NCBI GenBank assembly: GCA_019638935.1
Contig: JAHBSW010000002.1
Span: 37,968 to 101,967 of the forward strand
Source: Cryobacterium sp.
Lineage (GTDB): Bacteria; Actinomycetota; Actinomycetes; Actinomycetales; Microbacteriaceae
DNA length: 64,000 nucleotides
Direction of reading: 5' to 3'
The notes beneath the pieces were generated by a model that was not told the DNA's origin, made no database searches, and was given only the letters and a program-made list of their open reading frames with translations. Of this stretch, positions 15,096-60,512 are shown one piece after another (positions within the stretch are counted from its first letter, which is position 1; each line of letters opens with the position of its first letter). The position numbers were made by a program, and so were the translations under genes.

Positions 15096-15096
15096 G

Positions 15097-44620: not shown

Positions 44621-46051
44621 ATGGCTCGTCGCTTACCGTCGACCCCGCCCGTGCTCCCGGGCTTCAGCCACGTGCACATTCTGGGCACGGGCGGGTTTGC
44701 CGACGTGTTCCTCTACGAGCAGAACATGCCTCGCCGACAGGTGGCTGTGAAAGTCATGCTCAGCGAGGTCGTCAACAACTCGGTGCGGCAGATGTTCCAG
44801 GCCGAGGCCAACCTCATGGCCAAGCTCTCGACCCATCCCTCGATCCTCACGGTCTACCAGGCCGGCGTCTCGGCCGACGGTCGCCCCTATCTCGTGATGG
44901 AACTCTGCTCGCCGTCGCTCAGCGAACGGTACCGCATCGAGCGCATTCCGGTTCCGGATGTTCTGCGCATCGCCATCCGCATCGGCAGCGCGATCGAGTC
45001 CGCGCACCGTGAGGGCGTCCTGCACCGCGATATCAAGCCGTCGAACATCCTCACGACGGCATATGGGCATCCTGTGCTCTCCGATTTCGGCATCGCCTCG
45101 ACCCTGAGCGATTCGGGTCAGCTCGACGCCATCGGGATGTCGATCCCGTGGTCGGCGCCCGAGGTGCTGCTCGACGAGACGGCGGGCACGGTCGCGAGCG
45201 AGGTGTGGTCGCTCGGTGCGACCGTCTACTCGCTGCTCGCGGGCCGCTCGCCGTTCGAGCTCACCGACGGCTCGAACCAGCCGGAGGACCTCATCGGTCG
45301 CATCGCCCGCGCGAAACCGCAACCGATCGGTCGCGACGACGTTCCCGCGAGCCTCGAGCGCCTGCTCGGCGAGGCGATGCAGCGCCGTCCGCACAATCGC
45401 CCCCACACGGTGCTGGAACTGGTTCGCGGATTCCAAGCGGTGGAGACCGAACTGGGTCTTCCCCAGACCCCGCTCGAGGTCGCGGTCGATGAGTGGGCAA
45501 CGGCGACGGTCGGCGACCTCGAGGAGCGCACCCGTGTGCGCGTGAACCACTCTCCGGCCGCTCCCCATTCGGCGCGTCAGCGTCGTCGGCTCGTGACCGA
45601 TACCGCGGGTGCGCCCGCGGGCATCGGCACGATTCACCGCGATGGCTCGGCGGGGTCAGCCGGTCTGAACACGAAGACCAGTCGACCGGGGTTCACGATG
45701 AACGCGTTCACCTGGACTCTCGTCATCAGCGCCGTGCTCGTGATCGCCCTCGGCACGATTTCGACGATCGTGCTGCTGCGTTCGCTCGCTGATCAGATAC
45801 CCCGGGTCACCGACATCGACGCGCGAGTGGTCGGAACGCAGGTCGAGTTCTCCTGGGAGGATCCCGGACTCGATCGCGGTGACTCCTATCAGGTGTCGAC
45901 CGACGACGGCTTCAACTCCAGCATTCAGTCGTCGCGCACGTTCACGGTCGCGGCCGCGGAGGGCGATCGCGTGTGCCTCACGGTGACCGTCAATCGCAAC
46001 GGGCAGACCGGCGAGCCGAGCAATCGCAAGTGCGTGGACGTCAACGGCTAG
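44621..46051 (+). CDS. Hanks-type Ser/Thr protein kinase with one TM helix and an Fn3-like extracellular domain
   Basis: Gly loop LGTGGFADVF, Lys VAVKVM, catalytic loop HRDIKPSNIL, SDFGIA, and PWSAPE in the APE position. TM helix FTWTLVISAVLVIALGTISTIVLL, then VEFSWEDPG...YQVS...CLTVTV. Confidence 0.9.
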   Translation: MARRLPSTPPVLPGFSHVHILGTGGFADVFLYEQNMPRRQVAVKVMLSEVVNNSVRQMFQAEANLMAKLSTHPSILTVYQAGVSADGRPYLVMELCSPSLSERYRIERIPVPDVLRIAIRIGSAIESAHREGVLHRDIKPSNILTTAYGHPVLSDFGIASTLSDSGQLDAIGMSIPWSAPEVLLDETAGTVASEVWSLGATVYSLLAGRSPFELTDGSNQPEDLIGRIARAKPQPIGRDDVPASLERLLGEAMQRRPHNRPHTVLELVRGFQAVETELGLPQTPLEVAVDEWATATVGDLEERTRVRVNHSPAAPHSARQRRRLVTDTAGAPAGIGTIHRDGSAGSAGLNTKTSRPGFTMNAFTWTLVISAVLVIALGTISTIVLLRSLADQIPRVTDIDARVVGTQVEFSWEDPGLDRGDSYQVSTDDGFNSSIQSSRTFTVAAAEGDRVCLTVTVNRNGQTGEPSNRKCVDVNG

Positions 46052-49000: not shown

Positions 49001-51988
49001 TCCATCCGCCCGGGAGGGACCGTGACCGTGCAGGTGCTCTCGAACGACTCCGATCCCGACGGCAGTCCGCTGACGGTGACCGCCGTGGAACCCAGTGACG
49101 ACGAGGTGGAGGCGACGACGGATGGGCAGGTCGTCACGGTCACGCCCCCCGCTGTGCCCGGCAGCTACGGAGTCGTCTACACCATCCAGAACGCCGTGGG
49201 CGGCACGAGCTCTGCGTTCCTCACCGTCACGGTCGACCCCGATGCCCCGCGCGCGTATCCGATCATTCGCGACGCCGTGCTCAATCTCACCGACATCCTG
49301 GATCTCGACGAGGTCGACGTGAACGTGCTCGCGGGTGCGTTCTTCGCCGACGGTCCCGTGTCTGAACTGGGTGTCTCGCTCTTGCCCGGCTACGACGATG
49401 CGGCAACGGTGACGCCGACGAAACGCATTCGGGTGACGATCGGCGACCGCAGTCAGATCATTCCGTTCGCGGTGTCGCACCCCGACGACGCGGAGCTGCG
49501 CTCCTTCGCGTTCGTCTGGGTTCCGGGCTACGACGATGCCCTGCCGCAGATCAATCGCAGGGCGCCTGCGCTCACGATTCCCAGCGAGTCGACTCTCACG
49601 ATCGACCTGAAGCAGTACGTCGTCGCGATCGGCGGCGGACCGGTCTGGCTCACCGATACGTCGACCGTTCACGCGACGCACACCAATGGCGAGTCGCTCG
49701 TCGTCGACCGGCAGACACTGCGGTTCACCTCAGCGGACAAGTACTTCGGACCCGCCTCGATCTCGTTCGAGGTCACCGACGGCACGACGGCGGATGACCC
49801 CGACGGCAGGCGCGCGACGCTCGTGCTGCCCATCACCGTGACTCCGCGCGAGAACCAGCCGCCCATCTTCAACGGCGCGGTTCTCTCGTTCGAGCCCGCG
49901 GAAGAGCGCACCCTCAACCTGTTGAATCTCACGACCTACCCCTATGACGACGATCTCGACGAGCTCGCGTACACCGCGCTTGCTCCGCTTCCCGTCGGAT
50001 TCAGCTATTCGCTCACCGGCCAGCAGCTGACGATCCGGGCGAATGAGGATGCCGTCAAGGGCACCAAGACCGCTCTCGTGCTCGCCGTGCGCGACGATCT
50101 CGAGGAGGGCAAGGCGGGCCGCATCGAGCTCACGGTCGTCGCATCCAGCCGCCCGCTGGCGAGCCCCGCCCCGGATTCCTTCGTCGCCCCGCGCGGCGAG
50201 ACGACCGTCTTCGACGTGCTCGCCAACGATCAGGCGACGAACCCATTCCCCGGCTCGCCTCTCACGGTCGTCGATGTTCGCGGCGTCGGCGGCAGCGACC
50301 TGCCGCCGGGGGTGACGGTCGTGCCGAGCTCGGACAACCGCAGGCTCTCGGTGACGGTGTCGCCTGATGCCGCGCCGCAGGACATCAACCTGCAGTACCA
50401 GGTGCACGATGCGACGCGGGATCCCGACCGTGCCGTGTGGGGCAATGTGCGGGTGCAGATTCAGGACCGACCCGATCCGGTCACGGCGGCGCGCGTCACC
50501 GGATTCGGAGACAAGCGTCTCACGGTCGCGTGGAACCCTGGCGCCGCCAACAACTCGCCGATCACCGGCTACGAGGTGACCGCGACCCGTTCGGACACGG
50601 GTTCGGTCATCGGCGTCACGTCGTGCACGGTGACGAGCGGATGCGACATCCCGACCTCCGGCAATGGGCCGGCCAACGGCGTGCGTGTCGCGGTCTCCGC
50701 GATCAACTCGATCGGCAAGTCCGATGCCACGAACGTGCCGGGAGTCGCGTGGTCCGATGTCATCCCCGCCGCGGTCGGGGGAGTGAGCACGGTGGCCACC
50801 AACACGGCCCCCGCCGGAGGCTCGATCAGCGTGAGCTGGAACCCCGTTCCCGATCCGACACCCGGGTCCGCTCTCGTCGGCTACGTGGTGCGCATCACCG
50901 GGCCGAGCGTCGATCTCGCGATTTCGCGCGGTCCCTCGATCACGAGCCTCGACTACACCAACGCCGACGGAGTGCTCAAGCCGAACACGCAGTACTCGGT
51001 GACCGTCTACGCGAGGAACAGCGCGCAGGTAGCTTCGGAATCGGCGTGGCTTCGCAGCACACCGGTCGCGGTCACGCCCGTCGGTCCTCCCGGCGCGGTC
51101 GCGGGTGGTGTGTCGGGAGTGGTCGTCAACGCGCAGGGTCACGTGCAGATCAGCTGGGGGGCGGCAAGTCCCAATGGTGCATCGGGCGTGAGGTACTCCG
51201 TCGGCCGCTTTCTCGAGTCCGATGAACTGCCCACGACGTGTCAAGCGCCGAGCCCGGGTTCCGGAGGCAACGTCACGAGCCCCTGGGTCGATACCACCGT
51301 GGCCGATCAGGTGACCTACCGCTACGTCGTCTACGTCACCAACGTCGACAGCGCCGAGAACCCCTTCTATTGCACGCTCAATGCGTCAGGCCCGGTGCGC
51401 ACGATGCAGCCCCCGGGTCAAGCGAGCGGCAGCACGGCGATCGAGTTCCGCAATGGTCAGTTCGATGTGCGGGCGGGCACCGATCTCAGCGTCGCGACGC
51501 ACTCGGCCGAGAAGTTCCAGTTCTCGATCAACTCGGGGCCGTTCATCGACCTCCCCGCAGACCGTTGGCTCACGTCGATGGAGAACTCGGCGATGTACGG
51601 CAGCCTCATGACCGTTCAATACCGCGGATGTCGGGACGCGAGTGAGAATTTCTGCGGTGAGCCGTCGGCGATCGTGACGCTCCGGCCGGTCAACGCGCGG
51701 GCGACGATGGCCAGCTGCGTCGTGGGCGCGCAAGCGCTTGCAAGCCCCCCGGCCAACCCGGGCGGCTCGCCGACCGTGACCTTCCAGTACTCGTTCCACG
51801 ATGGCGGCGACACGTCCGACTGGACGGCCTTCTCGAGCGATGCGACCGTGCCGCCGCCCGCGGTCACCGATCCCGATGAAGCCGACGCGGTCGTGCGTGT
51901 TCGAGTGAAAGCCACCGTCGATTTCGGAGACGGCTCGCCGCGCACCGATGAGGCAAGTTCACCGGCTTTCGAGTGCAGTCCAGAATGA
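46061..51988 (+). CDS. giant (1975 aa) N-terminally anchored surface protein with tandem Ig/cadherin-like modules and fibronectin type III domains
   Basis: N-terminal signal-anchor AFATAMSGTVIAALVATLAIVSGG. About 11 modules of roughly 95 aa carry P-x-A-x-x-D...V-L-x-N-D-x-D-P-x-G-D-type motifs (for example VLLNDHDPNGDVL, VLDNDVHPDGEEL, VLSNDSDPDGSPL). About 3 Fn3 modules follow (LTVAWNPG...ITGYEV). No C-terminal LPXTG is visible. Confidence 0.85.
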   Translation: MIISWISRNRSAFATAMSGTVIAALVATLAIVSGGYTAQQVELSDGSVWVAKGDEQLIGRANVDVLELNSVVGAEGTELEVVQQGATVLLMDRTNSRLDVIDAATSTVVDETAMPTAAPRVFLAGGNAVVTDANGRVWILPAASLGEFDLDSQPALNLGGDAVYSMDSSGVLAAYSQVAGEVYRIDAANGGRVLASVEAPFGVPASELQVAWVGEHWVLFDAVNHDALIDGREVDLTAQFTLAERPKLQASAVSGDSVLISSPQGLLDLPLSGGEPSVVVGGRTGFAAQPLVLDECRFAAWSDGTLWRQCADPTGIQFSLEGMSLGASQLEFAVNGTRVVLNDPRGGSTWAAQRSGELIDNWADLVTLREEEQAVVVDDPNADIEFERAQKPPVAVDDSFGARPGRSSVLPVLLNDHDPNGDVLVVSRVSAIDESLGRVDLINNRQQVQLTLTDSASGIITFDYSITDGRGGEDSAIVTVTVRSPDENSAPEQRWASSTLVAQGGRVTTSVLGDWVDPDGDTIYLASATTAAPDLVSYTPAGMVVFTEGGATGQTRGVSLVVTDGQAEGVGSLSVTVEPPGEVPIIAENFVVLAYAGQELRVEPLGHVRGGTGEIRLSSIAPITGASVSANLDDGIFRFMSETPKTYLLEYVVNDGSQTAAGIARIDVAAPPDANSKPITVPKTVFVQTLGSNTVDIAASDIDPSGGVLLVTGVYNVPARSGVQVELIEHRIARVTLTAPLDDGPVLFNYRVSNGLAEAEGEVTVIEIPRPTRLQPPVAMPDAISVRVGAAIDIPVLDNDVHPDGEELTLDRDLAVQLGDDGGLLFSTGRLLRYLAPDRPGDFTATYTVRGPDGQAANARVTITVRERVEATNRPPVPRIIVARVLAGESVTIPIPLSGIDPDGDTVQLLGQESNPEKGSVTSTGSDSLTYRAGSYSAGSDAFSYTVMDALGARATGIVRVGISPRLDGARNPVATPDTVSIRPGGTVTVQVLSNDSDPDGSPLTVTAVEPSDDEVEATTDGQVVTVTPPAVPGSYGVVYTIQNAVGGTSSAFLTVTVDPDAPRAYPIIRDAVLNLTDILDLDEVDVNVLAGAFFADGPVSELGVSLLPGYDDAATVTPTKRIRVTIGDRSQIIPFAVSHPDDAELRSFAFVWVPGYDDALPQINRRAPALTIPSESTLTIDLKQYVVAIGGGPVWLTDTSTVHATHTNGESLVVDRQTLRFTSADKYFGPASISFEVTDGTTADDPDGRRATLVLPITVTPRENQPPIFNGAVLSFEPAEERTLNLLNLTTYPYDDDLDELAYTALAPLPVGFSYSLTGQQLTIRANEDAVKGTKTALVLAVRDDLEEGKAGRIELTVVASSRPLASPAPDSFVAPRGETTVFDVLANDQATNPFPGSPLTVVDVRGVGGSDLPPGVTVVPSSDNRRLSVTVSPDAAPQDINLQYQVHDATRDPDRAVWGNVRVQIQDRPDPVTAARVTGFGDKRLTVAWNPGAANNSPITGYEVTATRSDTGSVIGVTSCTVTSGCDIPTSGNGPANGVRVAVSAINSIGKSDATNVPGVAWSDVIPAAVGGVSTVATNTAPAGGSISVSWNPVPDPTPGSALVGYVVRITGPSVDLAISRGPSITSLDYTNADGVLKPNTQYSVTVYARNSAQVASESAWLRSTPVAVTPVGPPGAVAGGVSGVVVNAQGHVQISWGAASPNGASGVRYSVGRFLESDELPTTCQAPSPGSGGNVTSPWVDTTVADQVTYRYVVYVTNVDSAENPFYCTLNASGPVRTMQPPGQASGSTAIEFRNGQFDVRAGTDLSVATHSAEKFQFSINSGPFIDLPADRWLTSMENSAMYGSLMTVQYRGCRDASENFCGEPSAIVTLRPVNARATMASCVVGAQALASPPANPGGSPTVTFQYSFHDGGDTSDWTAFSSDATVPPPAVTDPDEADAVVRVRVKATVDFGDGSPRTDEASSPAFECSPE

Positions 51989-52032
51989 AACCACCCCTTC
52001 CGCCCACTCCCGCCAACCGGAAAGACCAGACG

Positions 52033-53004
52033 ATGACGATGACCCCCGAGCAGGCCACCTGGTTCGCTGACGTATTCGATCGCCTCGTCGCGGGCGTCGA
52101 TCAGGTGCTTCTCGGCAAGACCTTCGTCGTCAAGCTCGCCTTCACCGCCCTGCTCAGCGAGGGTCACCTGCTGCTCGAGGATTTTCCGGGCACGGGCAAG
52201 ACTTCGCTCGCGCGCGCCATGGCACAGAGCGTCGACGGCACGAGCAATCGCATCCAGTTCACCCCCGACCTGCTGCCCGGTGACATCACCGGCGTGAGCG
52301 TCTACGACCAGAAGGCGGGCGCGTTCGAGTTTCACCAGGGTCCGGTGTTCGCGAGCATAGTGCTCGCTGACGAGATCAACCGCGCGAGCCCCAAGACTCA
52401 GGCGGCACTGCTCGAGGTCATGGAAGAGGGGCAGGTCACGGTCGACGGCGTCACCCACGATGTCGGCGAGCCCTTCATGGTCATCGCGACCCAGAATCCC
52501 GTCGAGCAAGCGGGCACCTACCGTCTGCCCGAGGCTCAGCTCGACCGCTTCATCATGAAGACATCGATCGGCTACCCCGACCACGCCTCGACCCTGCGCA
52601 TCCTGCAGGGTGCCTCGGCGAAGGCGCACGACGTCAAGGTTCCCGCGGTGGCGACCGCCGAGCTCATCGTCGAGATGGGGGCCATGGCACGCACGGTGCA
52701 CGTCGACCCGTCGATCAACGACTACGTCGCCCGGCTGGTCGAGGCCTCGCGCAATTCCGCGGAGGTTCGTCTCGGAGCGAGCGTGCGCGCCGCCCTTGCG
52801 CTCGTGCGCACCGCCAAGACGCTCGCTGCGGCGAGCGGCCGGCACTATGTCATTCCCGACGACGTCAAGGTGCTCGCAGAGCCCGTGCTCGCGCACCGCC
52901 TCGTGCTCGATCCCGAGGCCGAGTTCGAGGGCGTCACGGCATCCGGAATCGTGAGCCAGCTACTGCTCGAAACCGCTCCACCCTCCGATCGGCAGCCAGG
53001 GTGA
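52033..53004 (+). CDS. MoxR-family AAA+ ATPase
   Basis: Walker A LLLEDFPGTGKTSLARA, Walker B IVLADEINRASPKTQAALLEVMEE. Start ATG 52033 lies inside the track ORF. Confidence 0.9.
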   Translation: MTMTPEQATWFADVFDRLVAGVDQVLLGKTFVVKLAFTALLSEGHLLLEDFPGTGKTSLARAMAQSVDGTSNRIQFTPDLLPGDITGVSVYDQKAGAFEFHQGPVFASIVLADEINRASPKTQAALLEVMEEGQVTVDGVTHDVGEPFMVIATQNPVEQAGTYRLPEAQLDRFIMKTSIGYPDHASTLRILQGASAKAHDVKVPAVATAELIVEMGAMARTVHVDPSINDYVARLVEASRNSAEVRLGASVRAALALVRTAKTLAAASGRHYVIPDDVKVLAEPVLAHRLVLDPEAEFEGVTASGIVSQLLLETAPPSDRQPG

Positions 53005-54416
53005 ATCAGAAGACCTCCGTTCCCGGGCCTGCGAAGCTCACCGGGCGGTCCGCCACCGGACCGTCTCAGTGGCACGCCAGCCACACGACGTCGACGAGCG
53101 AGGAGCTGCGCAATACGCGCACGCGGCTCGTGGGTACGCGAACCGGGTTCCTCGCAGAGTCGATCGTGGCGATCGTGCGCTTCGCTCGCGGGCTGCAGGG
53201 AGCCGCCCAGTCGGCGTTCGCCCGTGCCGTCTCGGTCGTCACCCCGCTGGGGTGGGTCGTGCTCGTGCTCGCGCCACTCGCACTGGCGGTGGGCTACGGC
53301 GTCAACTGGCTCGAACTCGTCGTCGCGGGCTACATCGGTGCTCTCCTCATCGTCATCGCGAGCATCTACCTGATCGGTCGGAACGCGTTCGAGCTGTCGC
53401 TCCTGCTCGCCCACCCGCGCGTCATCGTCGGGGAGGATGCCGAGGGCGTCGTCCATGTGCACAACCCCACCCGGCGGCGGCTGCTGGGAGCAACCGTGGA
53501 GGTGCCCGTGGGGGAGGCGCTCGCCGAGTTCGCGCTCCCCAGTCTGCGGCGCGGAGCATCCTTCGAGCACACCTTCGCGGTGCCGACGACGCAGCGCCAG
53601 GTTCTCGAGATCGGTCCCGTGCGCACCGTGAGAGCAGACCCCATCGGCCTCGTGCGCCGCGAGATAGAGCTCGCCGAGACGACCGAGCTCTTCATCCACC
53701 CGCAGACCATCGGCATTCCCAGCACGACGACGGGATTCATTCGCGACCTCGAGGGCAACCCCACGAAGCAACTCGCCGACAGCGATGTGTCGTTTCATGC
53801 GCTGCGGGAGTACACGACGGGCGATGAACGGCGCTACATCCACTGGAAGTCCACGGCGAAGACCGGCACCTACATGGTGCGGCAGTTCGAAGAGACGCGC
53901 CGCAGTCACCTCGTCGTCGCACTGAGCCTTGCCACGAACGACTATGCCGGCTCCCGCGAGTTCGAGCTCGCGGTGAGTGTCGCGGGTTCGCTCGGCGTGC
54001 GCGCGATTCGCGATGCGCGCGAGGTCTCCGTCGTCGTCGGTGAGCGCACGCCGGAATTCGCCAAACGCAAGGTCTTCGCCGTCAACGCGCTCGACACCCT
54101 CACGCGTGCGCGGCTGCTCGACGACCTCACTCGCGTCGATCGCGCCGAGTCCGCTCTCGCGGTGAGCGATGTCGCTCGGGTGGTCGCCGAGCGCACGGTC
54201 GGAGTCTCGGTCGCGTTCCTCCTCTGCGGCTCGCCCGTGACCCCCGCGCAGTTGCGCACGGCGTCGGCGGTCTTCCCGGCGGATGTCGAGGTCGTCGCCA
54301 TCGTCTGCGACCCGAAGTCCATTCCCGGGCTGCGTCGGGTGCCCGGACTCCACGTGCTCACGATCGGTTCCCTGCACGATCTCACGAAGGCCCTCGCGAA
54401 ATCGGCGGCCGTATGA
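53001..54416 (+). CDS. DUF58 domain-containing protein (MoxR partner)
   Basis: Two TM helices, then the DUF58 signature FHALREYTTGDERRYIHWKSTAKTGTYMVRQFEE. GTGA overlap with the MoxR stop. Confidence 0.85.
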   Translation: MNQKTSVPGPAKLTGRSATGPSQWHASHTTSTSEELRNTRTRLVGTRTGFLAESIVAIVRFARGLQGAAQSAFARAVSVVTPLGWVVLVLAPLALAVGYGVNWLELVVAGYIGALLIVIASIYLIGRNAFELSLLLAHPRVIVGEDAEGVVHVHNPTRRRLLGATVEVPVGEALAEFALPSLRRGASFEHTFAVPTTQRQVLEIGPVRTVRADPIGLVRREIELAETTELFIHPQTIGIPSTTTGFIRDLEGNPTKQLADSDVSFHALREYTTGDERRYIHWKSTAKTGTYMVRQFEETRRSHLVVALSLATNDYAGSREFELAVSVAGSLGVRAIRDAREVSVVVGERTPEFAKRKVFAVNALDTLTRARLLDDLTRVDRAESALAVSDVARVVAERTVGVSVAFLLCGSPVTPAQLRTASAVFPADVEVVAIVCDPKSIPGLRRVPGLHVLTIGSLHDLTKALAKSAAV

Positions 54417-56737
54417 CCGAACGGCGCCCCCTCTCGATCGGCTTCGTGCTCGCCGCGGTGCTGCTTCTCTGGCTCGGCCTGGGCCTTTCCGCGGTCGCGT
54501 TCTGGCCGATCTTCGCCGCCGCGCAGTTCGCCGTGATGGCGGTCGCCGCCATTCTCGTCGGCACGGCAATCGGCGTGCTCGGTGCCCGCTATCGCTGGTC
54601 CAGCCTCGTCGTCGCGCTCGCCACGCTCATCGCGTTCACCGCGCTGGGTGTGCCGCTCGCCGTGCCCGCGAAGACCATCCTGGGCGTGCTCCCGAGCTTC
54701 GGCGGACTCGCCGATCTCTTCTCCGGGGTCGCTCTCGGCTGGAAGCAGCTGCTCACCATCGCCCTGCCCGTCGGTGACTACCAGGCACTGCTGGTTCCCC
54801 CCTTCGCGCTGATTCTCGTCGTCACCGTCATCGCGGTGACCATCGCGCTGCGCACGTCGTTCGGCGAGGTCGCGGCCGTCGGTCCCGTCATCGTCTTTCT
54901 CGTCGGGCTCGCGTTCGGTGCGGAGACGACGACGTGGCCGCTTCAACTGACGATCGCGCTCGCCGCGGCCATCATTCTCTATCTCATCTGGTGCCGCTGG
55001 TACCGTCGACGGGCATCCATTCGGATGCTTGCACGCAAGGCCGCCAGCGTTGACGCAGCGCCCCTCGAGACGGTTGCCGACGGTGGCTTCGTGGGCACGC
55101 GAACCCTGGTGAGCGCTGCGGTCGTGTTCACGATCGCGGCCGTGGCGGGAGTCGGCATGACCGCGCTGCTTCCGCCGTCGGGGGAGCGCGAGGTGCTGCG
55201 ATCGAGCACGGTGCAGCCCTTCGATCCGAGGCAGCACTCGAGCCCGCTGAGCGAGTTCCGCGCCTTCCTCAAAGAACCGCAGTCCGACCGCCTGCTGCTG
55301 ACCGTCGGCGGCCTCGAGCCCGGTGCGCGTGTGCGACTCGCGACTCTCGACTCCTACGACGGCATCGTCTACGCCGTCGACGGCGAGCGACAGGGCAGCA
55401 CCTCGGGAGTCTTCGCGCGAATCCCGTATCGCATCGACCAATCGGCGGTGCTGGGCGATGAGGTCGTCATCAACGTGAGCGTCGCCGGCTATTCGGGTGT
55501 GTGGCTGCCGACGATCGGCGAGCTGGTGAGCGTCGACTTCGGGGGGCCGCGCGCCGTCGAGCTCCGTGACGGCTTCTACTACAACGACGCTGGTTCGACG
55601 GGTGCCGTGCTGGCCCCGCTCGCCCCCGGCGACCAGTACCGGCTCACCGCCGTCATCCCGACCCCGCCCGCGGCGCTGTCCGTCGCGAGCCTCGAACCCA
55701 ACCCCGTGCCGCTCGCACCGCTGCCGGATCTGCCCGACGGGCTCGCCTCCACCCTGGACCGCTACGTGAGCGGCGTCGAGGGGGCAGGTGCGCGACTGCA
55801 GGCGATGCTCGACGGGCTGGCAGCGGAGGGCTATGTGAGCCACGGCATCTCCGAAGACGAACCGCCGAGTCGTTCGGGACACTCCAGCGAGCGCATCTCG
55901 GAACTCTTCACCGGCTTGCGGATGCTGGGCGACGCGGAGCAGTACGCGGTGGCGGCTGCCCTGATGGCGCGCGAGCTCGGCTTCCCGGCCCGGGTCGTCG
56001 TGGGCTTCGCGCCCGAGGTCGTCGAGGGGGTCACGACCGAGATCACGGGGAACGACATCTCCGCCTGGATCGAGGTCTCGACGAGTCGCTTCGGCTGGGT
56101 TGCCCTCGACCCGACGCCGCCCCTGCGCGAGATCCCGGATGAGGCGCCGCCGGAGCCCACCACCGTGACACAGCCGCAGACGCCCGTGCAACCGCCGGAG
56201 ATCGAGCCCGATGTGCGCGACGAGCAGGCGCCGCCCGAGGCGGTGCGAGACGAGCCGGAGGCGACGAACCCCTGGTTGCAGGTGCTCGCCCGAGTGCTCG
56301 CGGTGCTCGCGTGGCTCACGCTGGCGGTGGCGGTCGCTCTCGCCCCGTTTCTCACGATCGCGGCGGCGAAGTGGCGCCGGCGCCGACTGCGCCGCAGGGC
56401 CCCGACGCCGCTGGAGCGGATCACGGGCGGGTGGCAGGAGTTCCACGACGCAGCACTCGACCACGGCTACAGCCCCGGTGCCGTGCCGACCCGGCTGGAG
56501 GTGGCGCAAGCCGTCGGCGGAACACAGCCCTACGTGCTCGCCGCTGTCGTCGACCGTGTCGTCTTCGCGCCGGGTGAGCCGAAAGAGACCGAGGCCGATC
56601 AGCTGTGGCGCTCGATCGACGAACTGCGTTTCGGCCTCGGTGCCGATCGCACACGCTGGGAGCGCATCAAGGCTCTCGTCTCGCTGCGGTCGCTCGGTGG
56701 TTATAGTGTGACCAGGCTGTTCCGGCGGGAGGGGTGA
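54413..56737 (+). CDS. TgpA-like transglutaminase-fold membrane protein with substituted catalytic Cys and His; C-terminal TM plus DUF4129-like tail
   Basis: About 6 N-terminal TM helices. The core reads LGDAEQYAVAAALMARELGFPARVVVGF...NDISAWIEV...GWVALDPTP. ATGA overlap with the DUF58 stop. Confidence 0.82.
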   Translation: MTERRPLSIGFVLAAVLLLWLGLGLSAVAFWPIFAAAQFAVMAVAAILVGTAIGVLGARYRWSSLVVALATLIAFTALGVPLAVPAKTILGVLPSFGGLADLFSGVALGWKQLLTIALPVGDYQALLVPPFALILVVTVIAVTIALRTSFGEVAAVGPVIVFLVGLAFGAETTTWPLQLTIALAAAIILYLIWCRWYRRRASIRMLARKAASVDAAPLETVADGGFVGTRTLVSAAVVFTIAAVAGVGMTALLPPSGEREVLRSSTVQPFDPRQHSSPLSEFRAFLKEPQSDRLLLTVGGLEPGARVRLATLDSYDGIVYAVDGERQGSTSGVFARIPYRIDQSAVLGDEVVINVSVAGYSGVWLPTIGELVSVDFGGPRAVELRDGFYYNDAGSTGAVLAPLAPGDQYRLTAVIPTPPAALSVASLEPNPVPLAPLPDLPDGLASTLDRYVSGVEGAGARLQAMLDGLAAEGYVSHGISEDEPPSRSGHSSERISELFTGLRMLGDAEQYAVAAALMARELGFPARVVVGFAPEVVEGVTTEITGNDISAWIEVSTSRFGWVALDPTPPLREIPDEAPPEPTTVTQPQTPVQPPEIEPDVRDEQAPPEAVRDEPEATNPWLQVLARVLAVLAWLTLAVAVALAPFLTIAAAKWRRRRLRRRAPTPLERITGGWQEFHDAALDHGYSPGAVPTRLEVAQAVGGTQPYVLAAVVDRVVFAPGEPKETEADQLWRSIDELRFGLGADRTRWERIKALVSLRSLGGYSVTRLFRREG

Positions 56738-56741: not shown

Positions 56742-57470
56742 GTGAAGTGTCGCTACTGCGACTCCGCGCTACCCGAACGTGCACTCTTCTGCGGCGAGTG
56801 CGGGCGTCCGGTGACGGCAGCCCAGGGCGAGCCGTCGCGGCCCATCGTGGCGCGGCCGCTGACCGTCGCGGCCCCGACGCCCGAGCCCGGTCTCACCGTT
56901 TCGACGGGCTCTCTTCGCACCATTGCCGAGGCGTGCGAGCAGTGCGGCTCAGCGCTGGCGCCGACCGACATCTTCTGCGGCGAGTGCGGTGCGGTGTCGC
57001 GAGCGCGCGTTTCGACGCAGGGTGAGGGCGATTTCTCGTCCTCGCTGCCGGCGCCAGCGCCGACGCCCCTCTCGGCTGTCGGTCCGGAGGGTGGGAAGTC
57101 CGCTGGTCGAGTAGCGGCGCAGCCGCGTATCGAGACCCCCCCTCAACAGAGTTTCATCCTCCAGTTCAGCACGGGCGACAGCGTCACCGTGAGAGGCTCG
57201 GGGCTCATCGGTCGTCACCCCCGCCCGGAGCCCGGCGAGTTCTTCGACGAACTCGTCAGGGTGCACGACTCGACCCGGTCGGTCTCGAAGACGCACCTGG
57301 AGTTCGGCCAGGAGGGCGGCGAGTTCTGGATCAAGGACCGCTTCTCGGGCAACGGCACCGTGCTGCGCGGGCCTGACGCTCCCGTCGTGCAGCTCGTCGC
57401 GGATCGCCGCTATCGTGTGCCGCGCGGCTCGCGCGTCGACCTCGGTGACCAGTTCTTCGTGCTGAGCTAG
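56742..57470 (+). CDS. double zinc-ribbon plus FHA domain protein
   Basis: Zinc ribbons CRYCDSAL...FCGECG and CEQCGSAL...FCGECG, then an FHA core LIGRHP...SVSKTHLEF...DRFSGNGTVL. GTG start 4 nt after the upstream stop. Confidence 0.88.
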   Translation: MKCRYCDSALPERALFCGECGRPVTAAQGEPSRPIVARPLTVAAPTPEPGLTVSTGSLRTIAEACEQCGSALAPTDIFCGECGAVSRARVSTQGEGDFSSSLPAPAPTPLSAVGPEGGKSAGRVAAQPRIETPPQQSFILQFSTGDSVTVRGSGLIGRHPRPEPGEFFDELVRVHDSTRSVSKTHLEFGQEGGEFWIKDRFSGNGTVLRGPDAPVVQLVADRRYRVPRGSRVDLGDQFFVLS

Positions 57471-57602: not shown

Positions 57603-60512
57603 GTGACCCGCCGCATCCGTGTGCCCGCACCACCACAGCCGCCCGAGAAGCCCCCGTTCCCGCTGCTGGCAAGCCTTGCACCGGTCGCCGGTGCGCTCGT
57701 GATGTGGGCGTTCACGCAGTCGCCCTTCGCCCTCGTGTTCGCCCTGCTCGGCCCGCTCGTCGCCGGGGGCGGACTCGTCGATTCCCGGCGACGCCGCACC
57801 AAGCAGGCGCGGCTCGCGCGTGAGCAGTACGCAGCATCGCTGCGGGCTGCGCGGCAGCGCATCGATGCCGCTCACGAGTCCGAACGCGCCGAGCTGCTGC
57901 GGGCAGTCGCGCCGGCCCTCGACCCGCTCACTCACGGTACCGTCACCCATGAGCGCTGGCGGCACGAGCCAGGAGGCCCGCTCACGGTCTCCCTCGGCAT
58001 CGGCTCGGTCGCCAGCGAGCTCAGCATCGAGGGCTCGGCAGAACTCGATGCCGGCGTGGGCGAGGAGCAGAGCGACCTCGCGATGCGGGCGGCGCAGCTC
58101 GACGACGCGCCGATTCTCGTCGACGCTCGCGCGGGCATCGGAATAGTCGGCCCTGCGCTGGCGACGCGGGCGCTCCTGCGTGCGATCGTCGTTCAGCTCG
58201 CGCACTCGCTGGCTCCGGATGCCGCCCGGCTCCACCCGAAGAACCTCACCGACGTGAGCGACCTCACCTGGCTTCTCGAACTGCCGCATGCGAGCACCGA
58301 CACCATGGCTGCCACCGCGCCCGGCGAGAGTTCGCACAGCGTCGCGCCCACGGTGACAACGGTGCACTTCACCGACCTCGACGGACACAGTCTCGCCCTC
58401 GTCGCGCTTGCCGCTCACGAACGTGATCTGCCGCGCGAGTGCCATACGATCGTCAGCGTGAGCGGGGTGCTCGCCGTCGTGGTTCGCTCACCCGTCGAGG
58501 GCTCATTCGCGACCCTGCTGCGACCCCATATGCTCTCCCTCGAGAGCGCGACCCAGCTCGCAGTCCGGCTGCGGCGGAGAGCGGTTGCCGATGGCCTGAC
58601 TCGGCGCGATTCGATTCCCGAGAGAGTGGCATTCGCGGACCTCGGCGAACAACCATCGCCTGCGCAGCCGACCTCGCTCGACTGCGTCTTCGCGCTCGGC
58701 AGCGCGAGCGAGCCCATCATGGTCGATCTCGTCGGCGACGGCCCGCACGCTCTCGTCGGTGGCACCACGGGCAGCGGCAAGAGCGAGCTACTGTGCGCGT
58801 GGGTGCTCGCCATGGCGGCCAATCGAACCCCGCGTGACCTCAACGTTCTACTCGTCGACTTCAAGGGCGGGGCATCGTTTCGGATCATCGAGTCGCTGCC
58901 GCACTGCGTGGGAACAGTGACCGATCTCGATCCCACCGAAGCCGAGCGCGCCCTCACGAGCCTGCGTGCCGAGTTGCGCTATCGCGAGAGGGTGCTCGCC
59001 GAGCACGGAGCGCGCGATGTGGCCGAAATCGAGCGGGGAGCGCTGGCGCGCCTCGTCATCGTCGTCGACGAGTATGCCGCCCTCGTCATCGAGCACCCCT
59101 CGCTGCACGCGGTGTTCGCCGACATCGCGGCGCGCGGGCGCTCCCTCGGCGTGCACCTCATCCTCTCGACCCAGCGCCCCGCCGGGGTCGTGCGCGATGC
59201 CGTCTTCGCCAACGCGCCGATTCGGGTGAGCCTGCGCGTGCTCGATTCGGCCGAGAGCACGGCCGTCATCGGAGTCGCCGATGCTGCCCGGCTCAGTCCC
59301 GAGCATCCCGGGCGTGCCCTCGTGTCGCTTGCGGGCAGCGCGCCCGTCGAGCTCCAGCCCGCTCTCGTCACGGCACAGGATGTCGCGGCCATCCGGTCTG
59401 CTGCCGCACAGACCCCGGGCGATGCCGGGTACGCTCCGCGTCGGCCGTGGCTGCCCTCGCTTCCTCTCAGCGTCACGCCTTCCGAGCTGGCGGAGTCGGA
59501 AGGCGAGGCGACCGGAATCCGCTTCGCCCTCGCCGATCGCCCCTTCGAGCAGCGTCGCGTCGCCGCCACCTACGACCCGCGAGTCCACGGTCACCTGCTC
59601 GTCATCGGGGCTAAGGGTTCGGGTCGAAGCACCGTGCTCGCCGCCCTCGCTGCGTCGGCCGCAGACTCCGGGCTCGCGGTCACCGCCGTTCCGAGCGACA
59701 TCGAGGGGGCGTGGGATGTCGCGCACGAGGTGCTCGAGGTCGTTCGCTCCGGCAATGGCGCTCCGCAACTGTGCCTGATCGACGACCTCGATGTCGTCGT
59801 CTCACGGTTGCCCGACGACTACCGCGACCTCTTCCTGGGCACGGTGGGCATCCTCCTGCACGAGGGACCCTTCGCCGGCGTGCACCTCGTCATCACGACC
59901 GCCCGGGTCGGCTCGGCGATCAGCGCCGTCGCTGCACTGTGCGAGTCGCGCCTCGTGCTGCGGATGCCCGATCGCCACGAGCACCACGTCGCCGGCGCAG
60001 ATCCCGCCCGGTTCACTGCCGAACTGCCGCCCGGTCGCGGCTGGTGGAGAGACGATCTCGTGCAGGTCGCTCAGGTCGAATCGTCGACGCCGATGCCTAC
60101 CCGAGCGGCAGCCGGGCTCGAACCGCTCGAGCGGCGCAGCATGCTTGTCGTCTCGTCTCGTGCGACCGAGTTGGCGGCGACACTCGACGCGGCGTGGGGG
60201 AGCGGCACGGTCGAGCTCCTCGGCTTTCGCGAGCCTTCTTCGCTCACCATCGGCGATCCCGGCGAGCCCACCCGCGTCCTCATCGCCGATCCCGAGACCT
60301 GGCAGGGTCGCTGGGCACAGTTCACAGAGCTCGGTCGTCATGTCCCCGTCGCATTTCATGAGTGCACGCCCGGTCAGTACCGGCAACTCTGCGGATCGCG
60401 GGCTCTGCCAGCCCCGCTCGCGCGGCCCGGCGACTCGGTCTGGCTCCTGCATCCCGGGGGACGGGTGACTCGCGCCCGGCTCCCGGCCCGTGGGCCCGAC
60501 CGGCCGCGCTGA
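57603..60512 (+). CDS. FtsK/SpoIIIE-family ATPase with EccC/EssC-like architecture
   Basis: Two N-terminal TM helices and a basic coiled segment. The canonical P-loop domain has VGGTTGSGKSELL, Walker B LVIVVDEYAAL and LILSTQRPAG. A second, degenerate domain has VIGAKGSGRSTVL and LCLIDDLDVV. Confidence 0.85.
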   Translation: MTRRIRVPAPPQPPEKPPFPLLASLAPVAGALVMWAFTQSPFALVFALLGPLVAGGGLVDSRRRRTKQARLAREQYAASLRAARQRIDAAHESERAELLRAVAPALDPLTHGTVTHERWRHEPGGPLTVSLGIGSVASELSIEGSAELDAGVGEEQSDLAMRAAQLDDAPILVDARAGIGIVGPALATRALLRAIVVQLAHSLAPDAARLHPKNLTDVSDLTWLLELPHASTDTMAATAPGESSHSVAPTVTTVHFTDLDGHSLALVALAAHERDLPRECHTIVSVSGVLAVVVRSPVEGSFATLLRPHMLSLESATQLAVRLRRRAVADGLTRRDSIPERVAFADLGEQPSPAQPTSLDCVFALGSASEPIMVDLVGDGPHALVGGTTGSGKSELLCAWVLAMAANRTPRDLNVLLVDFKGGASFRIIESLPHCVGTVTDLDPTEAERALTSLRAELRYRERVLAEHGARDVAEIERGALARLVIVVDEYAALVIEHPSLHAVFADIAARGRSLGVHLILSTQRPAGVVRDAVFANAPIRVSLRVLDSAESTAVIGVADAARLSPEHPGRALVSLAGSAPVELQPALVTAQDVAAIRSAAAQTPGDAGYAPRRPWLPSLPLSVTPSELAESEGEATGIRFALADRPFEQRRVAATYDPRVHGHLLVIGAKGSGRSTVLAALAASAADSGLAVTAVPSDIEGAWDVAHEVLEVVRSGNGAPQLCLIDDLDVVVSRLPDDYRDLFLGTVGILLHEGPFAGVHLVITTARVGSAISAVAALCESRLVLRMPDRHEHHVAGADPARFTAELPPGRGWWRDDLVQVAQVESSTPMPTRAAAGLEPLERRSMLVVSSRATELAATLDAAWGSGTVELLGFREPSSLTIGDPGEPTRVLIADPETWQGRWAQFTELGRHVPVAFHECTPGQYRQLCGSRALPAPLARPGDSVWLLHPGGRVTRARLPARGPDRPR

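What the first reader, a model, noticed from the sequence alone, without database searches (positions are those of the whole stretch)
57603..60512. Stand-alone EccC/EssC-like motor without any other type VII secretion core gene
The 969-aa protein has two N-terminal TM helices and a basic coiled stretch. It has one canonical FtsK-type P-loop domain: G-G-T-T-G-S-G-K-S at 58758-58784, Walker B VVDEY, and STQRP. A second domain has Arg in place of the Walker A Lys (G-A-K-G-S-G-R-S at 59607-59630) and DD instead of DE in Walker B. This resembles the active-plus-degenerate domain layout of type VII coupling ATPases. However, no WXG100-size ORF fits in the gaps of the block (124, 9, 44 and 132 nt), and no EccB/EccD/mycosin-like genes are present in the window. 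A separate FHA protein with two zinc ribbons is encoded immediately upstream. This recalls the FHA domains fused to EssC in Firmicutes, here supplied in trans.
Basis: partly seen in the sequence, partly recalled or inferred. Interest (0 to 1): 0.62.

Follow-up and report, generated by a model that had tools for sequence, protein, structure and literature searches.

The report
Shortened secretion ATPase in threat-sensor operon
This gene encodes a shortened relative of the type VII secretion motor that has lost its substrate-binding third domain and its usual small secreted partner; it ends a recently described actinobacterial cell-surface threat-sensing (Esr) operon, so it is a new variant of a known system and not a new kind.

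Summary
ORF 57603-60512 encodes a 969-aa protein with two N-terminal TM helices, a canonical FtsK-type P-loop domain and a second, degenerate one.

The protein belongs to the EccC/EssC lineage and is not a DNA translocase. No WXG100, EccB, EccD or mycosin gene lies in the 64-kb window.

It is not an orphan. It is the last gene of a nine-gene operon: FHA, PP2C, Ser/Thr kinase, giant Ig/cadherin/fn3 protein, MoxR, DUF58, transglutaminase-like, Zn-ribbon-FHA, ATPase. This matches the Esr (epibiont sensing and response) pathway of a September 2026 preprint, the Bifidobacterium PFNA operon, and partly T7SSd.

In other Actinomycetota the same operon ends in a ~1480-aa ATPase with a fused FHA domain and three P-loop domains, followed by WXG100 genes. 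The window's protein belongs to a large Microbacteriaceae-specific "short" clade. That clade lacks D3, carries a private 140-aa C-terminal domain, has the FHA or PP2C gene alongside (24 of 24 loci) and never has a WXG100 gene nearby (0 of 24, against 36 of 54).

It most likely acts as a phospho-threonine-gated membrane motor that is the output of the Esr sensor. Its cargo is unknown. The whole-genome search for WXG100 genes could not be run.

The parts
57603..60512 (+). Short EccC-lineage membrane ATPase (969 aa), terminal gene of the operon
   Evidence: ORF and translation. Pfam FtsK_SpoIIIE 2.4e-35. NCBIfam EssC/EccC are the best hits but lie below their cut-offs. AF2 mean pLDDT 90.9. Foldseek best hit is EccC 4NH0, E 2.8e-34.
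57663..57935 (+). TM hairpin (aa 21-38 and 41-60) continuing as a basic cytoplasmic stalk helix to aa 111
   Evidence: Hydropathy. AF2 helices 21-38 and 41-111. The HMM of aa 1-62 matches the TM region of 51 of 54 long EccC-like proteins.
57984..58592 (+). D0 (DUF-like, P-loop-less alpha/beta domain, aa ~128-330)
   Evidence: AF2 secondary structure. The HMM of aa 63-345 matches the equivalent pre-D1 region in 46 of 54 long forms.
58638..59402 (+). D1, catalytically competent FtsK-type P-loop domain (Walker A 58758-58784, Walker B 59061-59075, TQRP 59169-59180)
   Evidence: Coordinates. G-T-G-(S)-G-K-S-E, D-E, RGRSLG and TQRP are invariant or nearly so (S391 90% or more) in 120 family members. 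D1 has the lowest dN/dS of all regions, 0.22-0.39.
59523..60092 (+). D2, nucleotide-binding-type but non-catalytic P-loop domain (Walker A with Arg at 59607-59630; Walker B DD at 59772-59792)
   Evidence: Walker A is G..SG[K/R][S/T], with Arg only in the window's subclade. Walker B hhhDD[LV]D lacks Glu, as does D2 of the long forms (DG/DR/DN).
60093..60509 (+). Family-specific C-terminal domain (aa 831-969) that takes the place of D3
   Evidence: Its HMM matches none of 54 long forms at E<1. Conserved residues are W900, W904, R927, R933, P936-938, W947 and R957. Modelled alone it reaches pLDDT 86.5. No significant PDB fold match was found; the best is E 0.32, and the weak hits are mostly RecA/P-loop-like alpha/beta folds.
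56742..57470 (+). Double zinc-ribbon, Ser/Thr/Pro-rich linker and FHA protein (EsrG-like output/adaptor)
   Evidence: Pfam DZR 1.1e-10 and FHA 2.4e-5. The GR, SxxH and NG phosphothreonine-binding residues are readable in the translation. A homologue lies directly upstream of the ATPase in 19 of 24 short-form loci.
54413..56737 (+). TgpA_N + transglutaminase-core membrane protein (EsrD-like)
   Evidence: Pfam. Synteny. The position of the catalytic Cys is never Cys in 34 homologues.
53001..54416 (+). DUF58 (vWA-related) membrane protein
   Evidence: Pfam DUF58 6.8e-10. Synteny.
51973..53004 (+). MoxR-type AAA+ ATPase (likely start ATG 52033)
   Evidence: Pfam AAA_3 1.4e-62 and AAA_lid_2 1e-23.
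46061..51988 (+). 1975-aa signal-anchored Big_9/cadherin-like/fn3 surface protein (EsrA/FN3/TsdI-like)
   Evidence: Pfam Big_9 2.8e-66, Cadherin_4/5 and fn3. Conserved upstream of MoxR in 16 of 24 short-form loci.
44621..46051 (+). Ser/Thr protein kinase with C-terminal TM segment and extracellular tail
   Evidence: Pfam Pkinase 6.7e-41. Translation.
43708..44496 (+). PP2C-type phosphatase
   Evidence: Pfam PP2C_2 8.3e-9. A PP2C gene sits directly upstream of the short ATPase in the Microbacterium loci.
43092..43715 (+). Disordered N-terminus plus FHA protein, first gene of the operon
   Evidence: Pfam FHA 1.6e-7.

Best explanation
The gene encodes a D3-less paralogue of the actinobacterial EccC/TsdC-type type VII secretion ATPase. 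It is the terminal gene of an Esr (epibiont sensing and response; PFNA-like) operon.

Shown:
- Its architecture is TM hairpin, stalk helix, D0, catalytic D1, non-catalytic D2, and a private 140-aa C-terminal domain where D3 should be.
- It belongs to a large, monophyletic, Microbacteriaceae-restricted clade under purifying selection.
- In that clade the gene always lies next to an FHA and/or PP2C gene, usually behind the sensor genes (giant Ig protein, MoxR, DUF58, transglutaminase-like), and never next to a WXG100 gene.
- Sister systems in other Actinomycetota carry the FHA fused to a three-domain ATPase, followed by WXG100 genes.

Inferred:
- The protein forms a membrane hexamer like EccC.
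- D1 hydrolyses ATP. D2 only binds nucleotide and has a regulatory role.
- Activity or assembly is switched by threonine phosphorylation. The operon's kinase and PP2C set the phospho-state, and the Zn-ribbon-FHA protein (an EsrG equivalent) reads it and docks on the ATPase. This does in trans what the fused FHA does elsewhere.
- The ATPase is therefore the effector arm of the surface sensor.
- D3 is the domain that binds the WXG100/EsxB signal, and it was lost together with the neighbouring WXG100 genes. The cargo is therefore probably not a classical WXG100 dimer. It is more likely a different polypeptide, recognised by the new C-terminal domain or handed over by the FHA adaptor.
For: EccC lineage:
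- NCBIfam gives EssC 258, EccCa 228 and EccCb 171 bits, against FtsK 62 and TraB 32.
- PDB phmmer best hit is 4NH0 at 1.2e-49. Foldseek best hit is 4NH0 at 2.8e-34, while the FtsK motor scores 1e-19.
- In a D1 tree rooted with E. coli FtsK, the short clade lies inside the EccC-like ingroup.

Architecture:
- HMMs built from each region of the short family match the long forms in the corresponding positions for the TM region, D0, D1 and D2. The C-terminal 139 aa match none of 54.
- The AF2 model has pLDDT 90.9.

Functional constraint:
- D1 motifs are invariant or nearly so in 120 sequences.
- dN/dS is below 1 in every region.
- About 145 of the top 150 50%-identity representatives are full-length short forms.
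- The short clade has 100% support.

Context:
- The order giant protein, MoxR, DUF58, transglutaminase-like, DZR/FHA, ATPase is conserved.
- An FHA or PP2C gene is adjacent in 24 of 24 short loci. This includes minimal loci that have lost the sensor genes: L005 has PP2C, PhnA, FHA, ATPase; L014 has PP2C, ATPase.
- WXG100-like ORFs occur in 0 of 24 short loci and 36 of 54 long loci, Fisher p = 5.7e-9.
- Long forms carry an N-terminal FHA.

Literature:
- Esr pathway, EsrG-EccC fusions and the proposed FHA control of EccC: bioRxiv 10.64898/2026.09.08.750141.
- T7SSd and phosphothreonine-competent FHA on TsdC: PMC11217815.
Against: - No cargo, partner channel protein or phosphorylation site has been identified.
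- The window's FHA domains are not detectably the closest relatives of the FHA fused to the long forms, so a gene fission is not shown.
- The tree does not resolve whether the short clade descends from the Esr-linked FHA-fused clade. The base is a polytomy. The AU test does not reject that grouping, p = 0.33.
- dS is near saturation for most pairs, so the dN/dS values are rough.
- The preprint suggests that Zn-finger EsrG variants act on transcription, which would make the FHA protein's target DNA and not the ATPase.
A WXG100 set and a full-length EccC may exist elsewhere, as they do in Cryobacterium sp. Y50 (L083 in addition to L024).
Confidence: 0.5

Rival explanations
1. It is still an ordinary type VII secretion motor. 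It exports WXG100/LXG-type substrates that are encoded elsewhere in the genome, possibly together with a full-length EccC.
For: Cryobacterium sp. Y50 holds both a short copy (L024) and a long FHA-EccC with a WXG100 gene (L083). In S. odontolytica, candidate Esx substrates are also encoded outside the esx cluster. The TM hairpin, D0, D1 and D2 are all retained.
Against: D3 is absent from the whole clade. In EccC, D3 is the domain that binds the substrate signal, according to the title of PDB entry 4N1A and PMC11217815. No WXG100-like ORF lies within 10 kb in 24 short loci or within the 64-kb window. In the one genome known to have both, the short copy is split into two ORFs.
Confidence: 0.17
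2. It is not a translocase. It is a membrane-anchored regulatory or scaffold ATPase of the Esr signalling pathway. For example, it could hold and release the Zn-ribbon-FHA protein so that this protein can act on transcription, or it could remodel the sensor complex.
For: The preprint proposes that Zn-finger EsrG variants regulate transcription directly. The FHA gene and the ATPase gene are kept together even where the sensor genes are lost (L005). No cargo gene is visible. Loss of the substrate-binding D3 fits a change of job.
Against: The complete EccC membrane and stalk apparatus and a fully canonical D1 are conserved, which would be costly for a mere tether. The Microbacterium loci keep PP2C and the ATPase without any FHA/Zn-ribbon gene.
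Confidence: 0.17
3. It is a decaying remnant of a type VII ATPase with no remaining function.
For: D3 and the WXG100 partner are lost. The clade has long branches (stem 0.59-1.41). Two members are split by frameshifts (L024, L027). D2 Walker A carries Arg in the window's subclade.
Against: The reading frame is intact across hundreds of 50%-identity clusters. D1 catalytic motifs are invariant or nearly so. dN/dS is 0.2-0.9 in all regions, including the new C-terminal domain. The AF2 model is confident throughout. The chromosomal position is conserved across genera.
Confidence: 0.04
4. It is an FtsK/SpoIIIE/TraB-type DNA translocase, possibly part of an integrated conjugative element.
For: Pfam places it in FtsK_SpoIIIE. 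D1 alone matches plasmid-borne FtsK/SpoIIIE-domain proteins at 43-53% identity.
Against: Pfam finds no FtsK gamma or alpha domain. FtsK scores 62 bits and TraB 32 bits against 258 for EssC. E. coli FtsK is a distant outgroup. No plasmid record covers 80% or more of the protein. The neighbours are lysA, hom, thrC, thrB, rho, prfA, the atp operon and polyamine genes, with no integrase or relaxase. The same YaaA, aldo-keto reductase ... ATPase order occurs in Microbacterium.
Confidence: 0.02

Closest known systems
EccC / EssC / TsxC membrane ATPases of type VII secretion (structure: Thermomonospora curvata EccC, PDB 4NH0/4N1A)
   Same: Two N-terminal TM helices plus a stalk, a P-loop-less D0, a catalytic D1 with identical motifs, and a D2 without the Walker B Glu. 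This family gives the best sequence and fold matches.
   Different: There is no D3; an unrelated 140-aa domain takes its place. Scores are far below the NCBIfam equivalog cut-offs. No WXG100 gene is nearby. According to PMC11217815, every described T7SS ATPase has four NTPase domains.
Esr (epibiont sensing and response) pathway linked to Esx, including EsrG-EccC fusions (Wang et al., bioRxiv 10.64898/2026.09.08.750141)
   Same: The same gene set is present: a giant Ig-repeat surface protein, MoxR, a vWA/DUF58 protein, a transglutaminase-like protein, a Ser/Thr kinase, PP2C, FHA output proteins (one with a Zn finger) and an adjacent EccC-type ATPase.
   Different: The described Esx-linked examples have a full EccC with EsxA/EsxB and effectors. 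Here the ATPase is truncated, no Esx substrate gene is present, and the FHA is separate. The main text of the preprint mentions neither truncated EccC nor Microbacteriaceae. The beta-propeller head of EsrA was not verified here.
T7SSd of Olsenella/Bifidobacterium (TsdA, TsdC, TsdD, TsdH, TsdI; Garrett, Higginson & Palmer 2024, PMC11217815)
   Same: It is an actinobacterial system that links an EssC-like ATPase with a Ser/Thr kinase, a phosphothreonine-competent FHA domain and a very large Ig-repeat envelope protein.
   Different: There is no TsdA (WXG100). The FHA is not fused to the ATPase. The ATPase has three, not four, NTPase-type domains. The giant protein has an N-terminal anchor and no C-terminal TM helix. 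A TsdH equivalent was not looked for.
PFNA operon of Bifidobacterium (pkb2, fn3, aaa-atp, duf58, tgm, prpC, fha; PMC8430577)
   Same: It has the kinase, FN3 protein, MoxR, DUF58, transglutaminase core, with PP2C and FHA genes.
   Different: No FtsK/EccC-type ATPase is described in PFNA; 'FtsK' occurs 0 times in that paper.
FtsK/SpoIIIE DNA translocases and Streptomyces TraB
   Same: They share the RecA-like P-loop motor fold and the Walker A, Walker B and TQRP-type motifs in D1.
   Different: This protein has no gamma (winged-helix) domain, two P-loop domains plus D0 instead of one motor, low family scores and a non-mobile chromosomal context.

Membership tests
EccC/EssC type VII secretion ATPase | Two N-terminal TM helices followed by cytoplasmic ATPase domains | tested here: met
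   Hydropathy, AF2 model, and the TM HMM matches 51 of 54 long forms.
EccC/EssC type VII secretion ATPase | D0 plus three FtsK-like P-loop domains D1-D3 (four NTPase-type domains) | tested here: not met
   D0, D1 and D2 are present. The C-terminal 139 aa match no part of 54 long forms and have no significant fold match.
EccC/EssC type VII secretion ATPase | Score above the curated NCBIfam cut-offs (TIGR03928, TIGR03924, TIGR03925) | tested here: not met
   Scores against cut-offs are 258 vs 778, 228 vs 509, and 171 vs 347. The FHA-fused long forms are also below the EssC cut-off, at 496-576.
EccC/EssC type VII secretion ATPase | Genetic linkage to a WXG100 (EsxA-type) gene | tested here: not met
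   No WXG100 gene is found in the 64-kb window or in 24 short-form loci, even at E<10. The rest of the genome was not searchable.
EccC/EssC type VII secretion ATPase | Closer to EccC/EssC than to DNA translocases in sequence, fold and phylogeny | tested here: met
Canonical ESX (T7SSa) or Ess (T7SSb) system | EccB, EccD and MycP, or EssA, EssB, EsaA and YukD-like genes beside the ATPase | tested here: not met
   Pfam scans of 36 window proteins show none of these. The atpF/H/A/G/D and 37916-42963 genes were not scanned.
Esr pathway (Wang et al. 2026) | Co-operonic giant Ig-repeat surface protein, MoxR, vWA/DUF58, transglutaminase-like protein, Ser/Thr kinase, PP2C and FHA protein | tested here: met
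   All seven are found by Pfam in one same-strand block, 43092-57470. The order is conserved in relatives.
Esr pathway (Wang et al. 2026) | N-terminal beta-propeller sensor head on EsrA | not tested
   The first ~390 aa of the giant protein have no Pfam match.
Esr pathway (Wang et al. 2026) | Responds to epibiont (Patescibacteria) contact by Thr phosphorylation of the FHA protein | not testable with these tools
   This needs co-culture and phosphoproteomics. The window's sequence recurs in activated-sludge metagenomes.
T7SSd (Garrett et al. 2024) | TsdA WXG100 plus TsdC with a fused N-terminal FHA | tested here: not met
   No WXG100 gene is present. No FHA domain is found in the 969-aa protein.
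FtsK/SpoIIIE DNA translocase | C-terminal gamma winged-helix DNA-recognition domain and a single alpha/beta motor | tested here: not met
   Pfam finds no FtsK_gamma or FtsK_alpha domain. NCBIfam FtsK scores 62 bits against a cut-off of 1566.
Conjugative element (TraB/TcpA/VirD4-type coupling ATPase) | Location in an ICE or plasmid with integrase, relaxase or transfer genes | tested here: not met
   The neighbours are core-chromosome genes. The chromosomal position is syntenic across genera. No plasmid carries a full-length relative. TraB scores 32 bits against a cut-off of 800.

The most novel reading that the evidence does not exclude
The short clade is a WXG100-independent, minimal secretion or translocation motor derived from the type VII ATPase. 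It would be an 'EccC-only' machine whose new C-terminal domain replaces D3 as the cargo or adaptor receptor, and which is switched on by a cell-surface threat sensor through phosphothreonine/FHA signalling. That would make it a further, so far undescribed subtype of type VII-like export, specific to Microbacteriaceae.
Probability: 0.3. Interest if true: 0.7.

Novelty: new variant of a known kind. Interest (0 to 1): 0.45.

Why it matters
Every type VII ATPase described so far has D0 plus three P-loop domains and works with a WXG100 protein. D3 is where the substrate signal binds.

A large, conserved clade has dropped D3 and its WXG100 neighbour. It keeps a perfect D1, the membrane anchor and a phosphothreonine reader or eraser next door. 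This is a natural experiment on what the EccC core can do without its classical substrate receptor.

It also offers a simple genetic handle on how the Esr threat sensor talks to an ATPase. The handle is a two- or three-gene module (PP2C, FHA, ATPase) that survives even where the sensor genes are gone.

The window's sequence recurs in activated-sludge metagenomes. Whether Patescibacteria epibionts matter there was not examined, so the ecological question raised by the preprint remains open for this organism.

Tried and rejected

2. DNA translocase or ICE reading. Rejected.

3. The idea that the upstream FHA gene was split off from an FHA-EccC fusion. phmmer with the window's two FHA domains finds only weak or no matches to the fused FHA domains, so this is not shown.

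4. The idea that the C-terminal domain is a recognisable D3 remnant. There is no HMM match and no significant Foldseek match. The only hints are weak RecA/P-loop-like hits, including 4NH0 at rank 14 with E 1.2. The result is inconclusive.

5. Rooting the tree to place the short clade. The midpoint root separates it from all the others. The FtsK-rooted D1 tree gives a basal polytomy. The AU test does not reject a grouping with the Esr-linked FHA-fused clade, p = 0.33. The origin is unresolved.

6. Promoter and terminator scan of the operon. The counts are at or below the shuffled expectation.

7. Expression evidence. Only metagenomic DNA runs hold the sequence, and the one metatranscriptome of the same sample holds none of the sampled words.

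8. Supplementary tables of the Esr preprint. They are not held.

9. Literature on a truncated EccC in Microbacteriaceae. Nothing was found.

Full report
**Observation**

The ORF at 57603-60512 (+, GTG) translates to 969 aa.
- GGTTGSGKS at 58758-58784
- VVDEY at 59061-59075
- STQRP at 59166-59180
- GAKGSGRS at 59607-59630
- a DD Walker B in CLIDDLD at 59772-59792

Two hydrophobic segments lie at aa 19-37 and 41-60. In a confident AlphaFold2 model (mean pLDDT 90.9, pTM 0.72, 120-sequence alignment) they form a helical hairpin. The second helix runs on as a long basic stalk to aa 111. The gene upstream (56742-57470) is a double zinc ribbon plus FHA protein (Pfam DZR 1.1e-10, FHA 2.4e-5).

**What the protein is**

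- Pfam assigns it to FtsK_SpoIIIE (2.4e-35) and finds no FtsK gamma or alpha domain.
- NCBIfam ranks EssC (258 bits), EccCa (228) and EccCb (171) far above FtsK (62) and TraB (32). All are well below the curated equivalog cut-offs.
- The best solved structure is Thermomonospora curvata EccC, both by sequence (4NH0, 1.2e-49) and by fold (Foldseek 2.8e-34; the FtsK motor scores about 1e-19).
- In a D1 tree with the E. coli FtsK motor as outgroup, the protein's clade lies inside the EccC-like ingroup.

It is therefore an EccC-lineage protein, not a DNA translocase.

**Domain anatomy**

I built HMMs from each region of the family alignment and searched 54 long EccC-like proteins from related loci.

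| Region (aa) | Result against long forms |
|---|---|
| TM hairpin (1-62) | Matches the corresponding part |
| D0 (63-345) | Matches the corresponding part |
| D1 (346-600) | Matches the corresponding part, about 280 bits |
| D2 (641-830) | Matches the corresponding part |
| C-terminal (831-969) | Matches none of the 54, even at E<1 |

The long forms continue into a third P-loop domain (D3). This protein instead ends in a private 140-aa alpha/beta domain.
- Its conserved residues are W900, W904, R927, R933, PPP936-938, W947 and R957.
- Modelled alone it is confident (pLDDT 86.5).
- It has no significant PDB neighbour. The best hit is E 0.32, and the weak hits are mostly RecA/P-loop-like folds, with EccC itself at rank 14.
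- Whether it is a vestige of D3 or something new is open.

D1 is fully canonical. G-T-G-(S)-G-K-S-E, D-E, RGRSLG and TQRP are invariant or nearly so (S391 90% or more) in 120 members.

D2 has G..SG[K/R][S/T] and hhhDD[LV]D. Lys is the majority state, and Arg is confined to the window's subclade. D2 of the long forms also lacks the Walker B Glu (DG/DR/DN), and some of those also have Arg. The 'active plus degenerate' pattern is therefore the ordinary EccC D1/D2 pattern. What is unusual is the missing D3.

**The family**

A word-indexed search finds full-length relatives of 900-1040 aa at 40-78% identity. Where they carry names, these are Microbacteriaceae such as Lacisediminihabitans, Terrimesophilobacter, Parafrigoribacterium, Glaciihabitans and Cryobacterium.

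In the exhaustive search of 50%-identity representatives, about 145 of the best 150 are full-length short forms.

In trees of D1-D2 and of D1, the 21 short forms make one clade with 100% support. All are Microbacteriaceae or unclassified actinobacterial MAGs, and the clade sits on a long stem.

Microbacteriaceae also have long FHA-fused forms (Leifsonia, Leucobacter, Gryllotalpicola, Microbacterium allomyrinae, Cryobacterium sp. Y50). The short form is therefore a paralogue, not the family's only version.

Pairwise dN/dS is below 1 in all regions. D1 is lowest at 0.22-0.39, and the C-terminal domain is 0.31-0.89. dS is close to saturation for most pairs.

**Context**

The gene is not stand-alone. 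It ends a same-strand block with these genes:

| Coordinates | Gene |
|---|---|
| 43092-43715 | FHA |
| 43708-44496 | PP2C |
| 44621-46051 | Ser/Thr kinase |
| 46061-51988 | 1975-aa Big_9/cadherin/fn3 protein |
| 51973-53004 | MoxR |
| 53001-54416 | DUF58 |
| 54413-56737 | TgpA_N + transglutaminase core |
| 56742-57470 | Zn-ribbon-FHA |
| 57603-60512 | ATPase |

The order giant protein, MoxR, DUF58, transglutaminase-like, DZR/FHA, ATPase is conserved in relatives.

The remaining window genes are housekeeping: lysA, hom, thrC, thrB, rho, prfA, prmC, the atp operon, YaaA, an aldo-keto reductase, ABC exporters and polyamine genes.
- Microbacterium arborescens has the same order (atp operon, YaaA, aldo-keto reductase ... 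PP2C, ATPase).
- Cryobacterium suzukii has aldehyde dehydrogenase, PP2C, PhnA, FHA, ATPase, polyamine importer. That is the same chromosomal slot with the sensor genes missing.
- No plasmid in PLSDB carries a full-length relative.

This excludes an integrated conjugative element.

**Comparison with long forms**

In Dactylosporangium, Terrabacter, Intrasporangium, Iamiaceae, a Mycobacteriales MAG, Pseudoclavibacter, Demequina and others, the same block (giant protein, MoxR, DUF58, transglutaminase-like) is followed by an ATPase of about 1450-1500 aa.
- These have an N-terminal FHA domain fused to an EccC/EssC-like body with D1-D3. NCBIfam EssC scores 496-550 bits for the four FHA-fused forms tested, and Pfam finds FHA at about aa 100-200.
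- They are followed directly by one or two ~90-aa genes. Pfam identifies these as WXG100; five of the eight tested are above the gathering score.

An HMM built from these small genes gave the following counts:

| Set | Loci with a WXG100-like ORF |
|---|---|
| Long-form loci | 36 of 54 |
| Short-form loci | 0 of 24 |
| The window | none, even at E<10 |

Fisher's exact test gives p = 5.7e-9.

Every one of the 24 short loci has an FHA gene (19) and/or a PP2C gene (7) within reach. Loss of D3, loss of the neighbouring WXG100 genes, and an FHA in trans instead of fused therefore go together.

**What is known**

- The kinase, FN3 protein, MoxR, DUF58, transglutaminase, PP2C and FHA set is the PFNA operon of Bifidobacterium (PMC8430577). 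No FtsK-type ATPase is described there.
- Garrett, Higginson and Palmer (PMC11217815) defined T7SSd in Actinomycetota. Its components are a WXG100 protein, an FHA-fused ATPase with phosphothreonine-competent FHA, a Ser/Thr kinase, a small TM protein and a very large Ig-repeat protein. They state that all T7SS ATPases have four NTPase domains.
- Wang et al. (bioRxiv 10.64898/2026.09.08.750141) showed in Schaalia odontolytica that this gene set is a threat-sensing pathway, which they named Esr.
  - A beta-propeller/Ig filament (EsrA) is held at the surface with the help of the transglutaminase-like EsrD.
  - It signals through MoxR, vWA, the kinase and the phosphatase to phosphorylate an FHA output protein (EsrG).
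  - 40% of 3502 Esr pathways lie next to esx genes.
  - EsrG is often fused to EccC, or carries Zn fingers.
  - The Esx-linked Esr2 controls export of particular substrates after translation, and the authors propose that this works through the FHA domain acting on EccC.
  - The main text mentions neither a truncated EccC nor Microbacteriaceae. Its supplements are not held.

**Mechanism proposed**

Shown:
- EccC lineage
- the TM, stalk, D0, D1, D2, C-terminal-domain anatomy
- conservation of the family
- membership of an Esr-type operon
- constant adjacency to FHA or PP2C genes
- absence of D3 and of neighbouring WXG100 genes

Inferred:
- The protein forms a membrane hexamer like EccC.
- D1 is the only hydrolytic site, and D2 is a nucleotide-binding regulatory domain.
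- The kinase and PP2C set a phosphothreonine mark. This is most likely in the Ser/Thr/Pro-rich linker of the Zn-ribbon-FHA protein, which has the same layout (N-domain, disordered linker, FHA) as EsrG1.
- The FHA protein gates the ATPase in trans.
- The cargo is unknown. D3 is the signal receptor for WXG100-type substrates, so the cargo is probably not a classical WXG100 pair.

I put 0.5 on this composite reading. The identity and context parts are near certain; the gating and export parts are inference.

**Rivals**

| Rival | Confidence |
|---|---|
| Ordinary T7SS motor using substrates encoded elsewhere | 0.17 |
| Non-translocating regulatory or scaffold ATPase of the pathway | 0.17 |
| Decaying relic | 0.04 |
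| DNA translocase or ICE | 0.02 |

**Limits**

- Its sequence recurs in activated-sludge metagenomes.
- One relative, Cryobacterium sp. Y50, has both systems. Its short copy is split into two ORFs.
- The tree does not resolve the origin of the short clade. The base is a polytomy. The AU test does not reject a grouping with the Esr-linked FHA-fused clade, p = 0.33.
- The window's FHA domains are not detectably closest to the fused ones.

**Earlier notes of this scan**

Earlier notes reach the same Esr/PFNA assignment for similar loci in other genomes. One mentions a 'shortened' ATPase. I treat these as agreement, not as evidence.

**Verdict**

The feature is real, conserved and correctly described. 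It is partly explained by literature from 2024-2026. What remains new is the D3-less, WXG100-less short clade with its private C-terminal domain. It is a new variant of a known kind, of moderate interest.

Noticed in passing
window 55928-56116 (and TGM homologues in L001-L080): The transglutaminase-like protein reads G-D-A-E-Q-Y-A where the family's catalytic Cys is expected. None of 34 Esr-linked homologues, next to short or long ATPases, has Cys at that position (GD[AQEDG]EQ[YF]A). The catalytic His (HAW) is kept in only some long-form-linked copies. This sits oddly with the preprint's idea that EsrD covalently attaches EsrA.
   Followed up: partly
L005 (Cryobacterium suzukii) 5994-15535; L014 (Microbacterium arborescens) 6371-14279: These are minimal versions of the locus. 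They have aldehyde dehydrogenase, PP2C, PhnA, FHA, ATPase, polyamine importer (L005) or YaaA, aldo-keto reductase, PP2C, ATPase (L014). No kinase, giant protein, MoxR, DUF58 or transglutaminase-like gene lies within 10 kb. The sensor half of the operon can therefore be lost while the PP2C/FHA/ATPase half is kept.
   Followed up: partly
L024 9848-12909 and L083 8987-23747 (Cryobacterium sp. Y50): One genome holds both a short ATPase and a long FHA-fused ATPase. The short one is preceded by FHA and PP2C genes but is split into two overlapping ORFs of 578 and 475 aa. The long one has a WXG100 gene, a kinase and a second giant Ig protein. L027 (a MAG) also has a split short copy.
   Followed up: no
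window 57574-57596: A small GC hairpin (CGCACC-GGGG-GGTGCG) followed by GGTTTTACTG lies in the 132-nt gap just before the ATPase start codon. It could be a weak internal terminator or attenuator. The scan as a whole found fewer sites than shuffled sequence gives.
   Followed up: no
proteins P0153, P0176, P0215, P0244, P0256: Among the best representative hits are proteins of 2760-2940 aa with 7-9 separate FtsK-like stretches. These are giant multi-P-loop relatives of unknown context.
   Followed up: no
L046: A contig labelled 'uncultured Gammaproteobacteria bacterium' carries an EccC-like gene with a WXG100-like ORF. It groups with Acidimicrobiia sequences in the tree and is probably a mis-binned actinobacterial contig.
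   Followed up: no
window 18924-20369: A 481-aa ORF with gene-like GC3 lies between DUF1980 and Sua5 and has no Pfam match at E<=0.001.
   Followed up: no
window 37916-42963 and 60698-63999: The operon lies between polyamine-catabolism genes (aminotransferase, Lrp-type regulator, aldehyde dehydrogenase) and a PotF/PotA/PotB-type importer. The same flanks occur in relatives (L001, L002, L005), so the operon occupies a fixed chromosomal slot in the family.
   Followed up: partly
window 57603-60512 in public runs X1-X4: Near-identical sequence is held only by activated-sludge metagenome runs. A metatranscriptome from the same sample as run X2 holds none of the sampled words.
   Followed up: no
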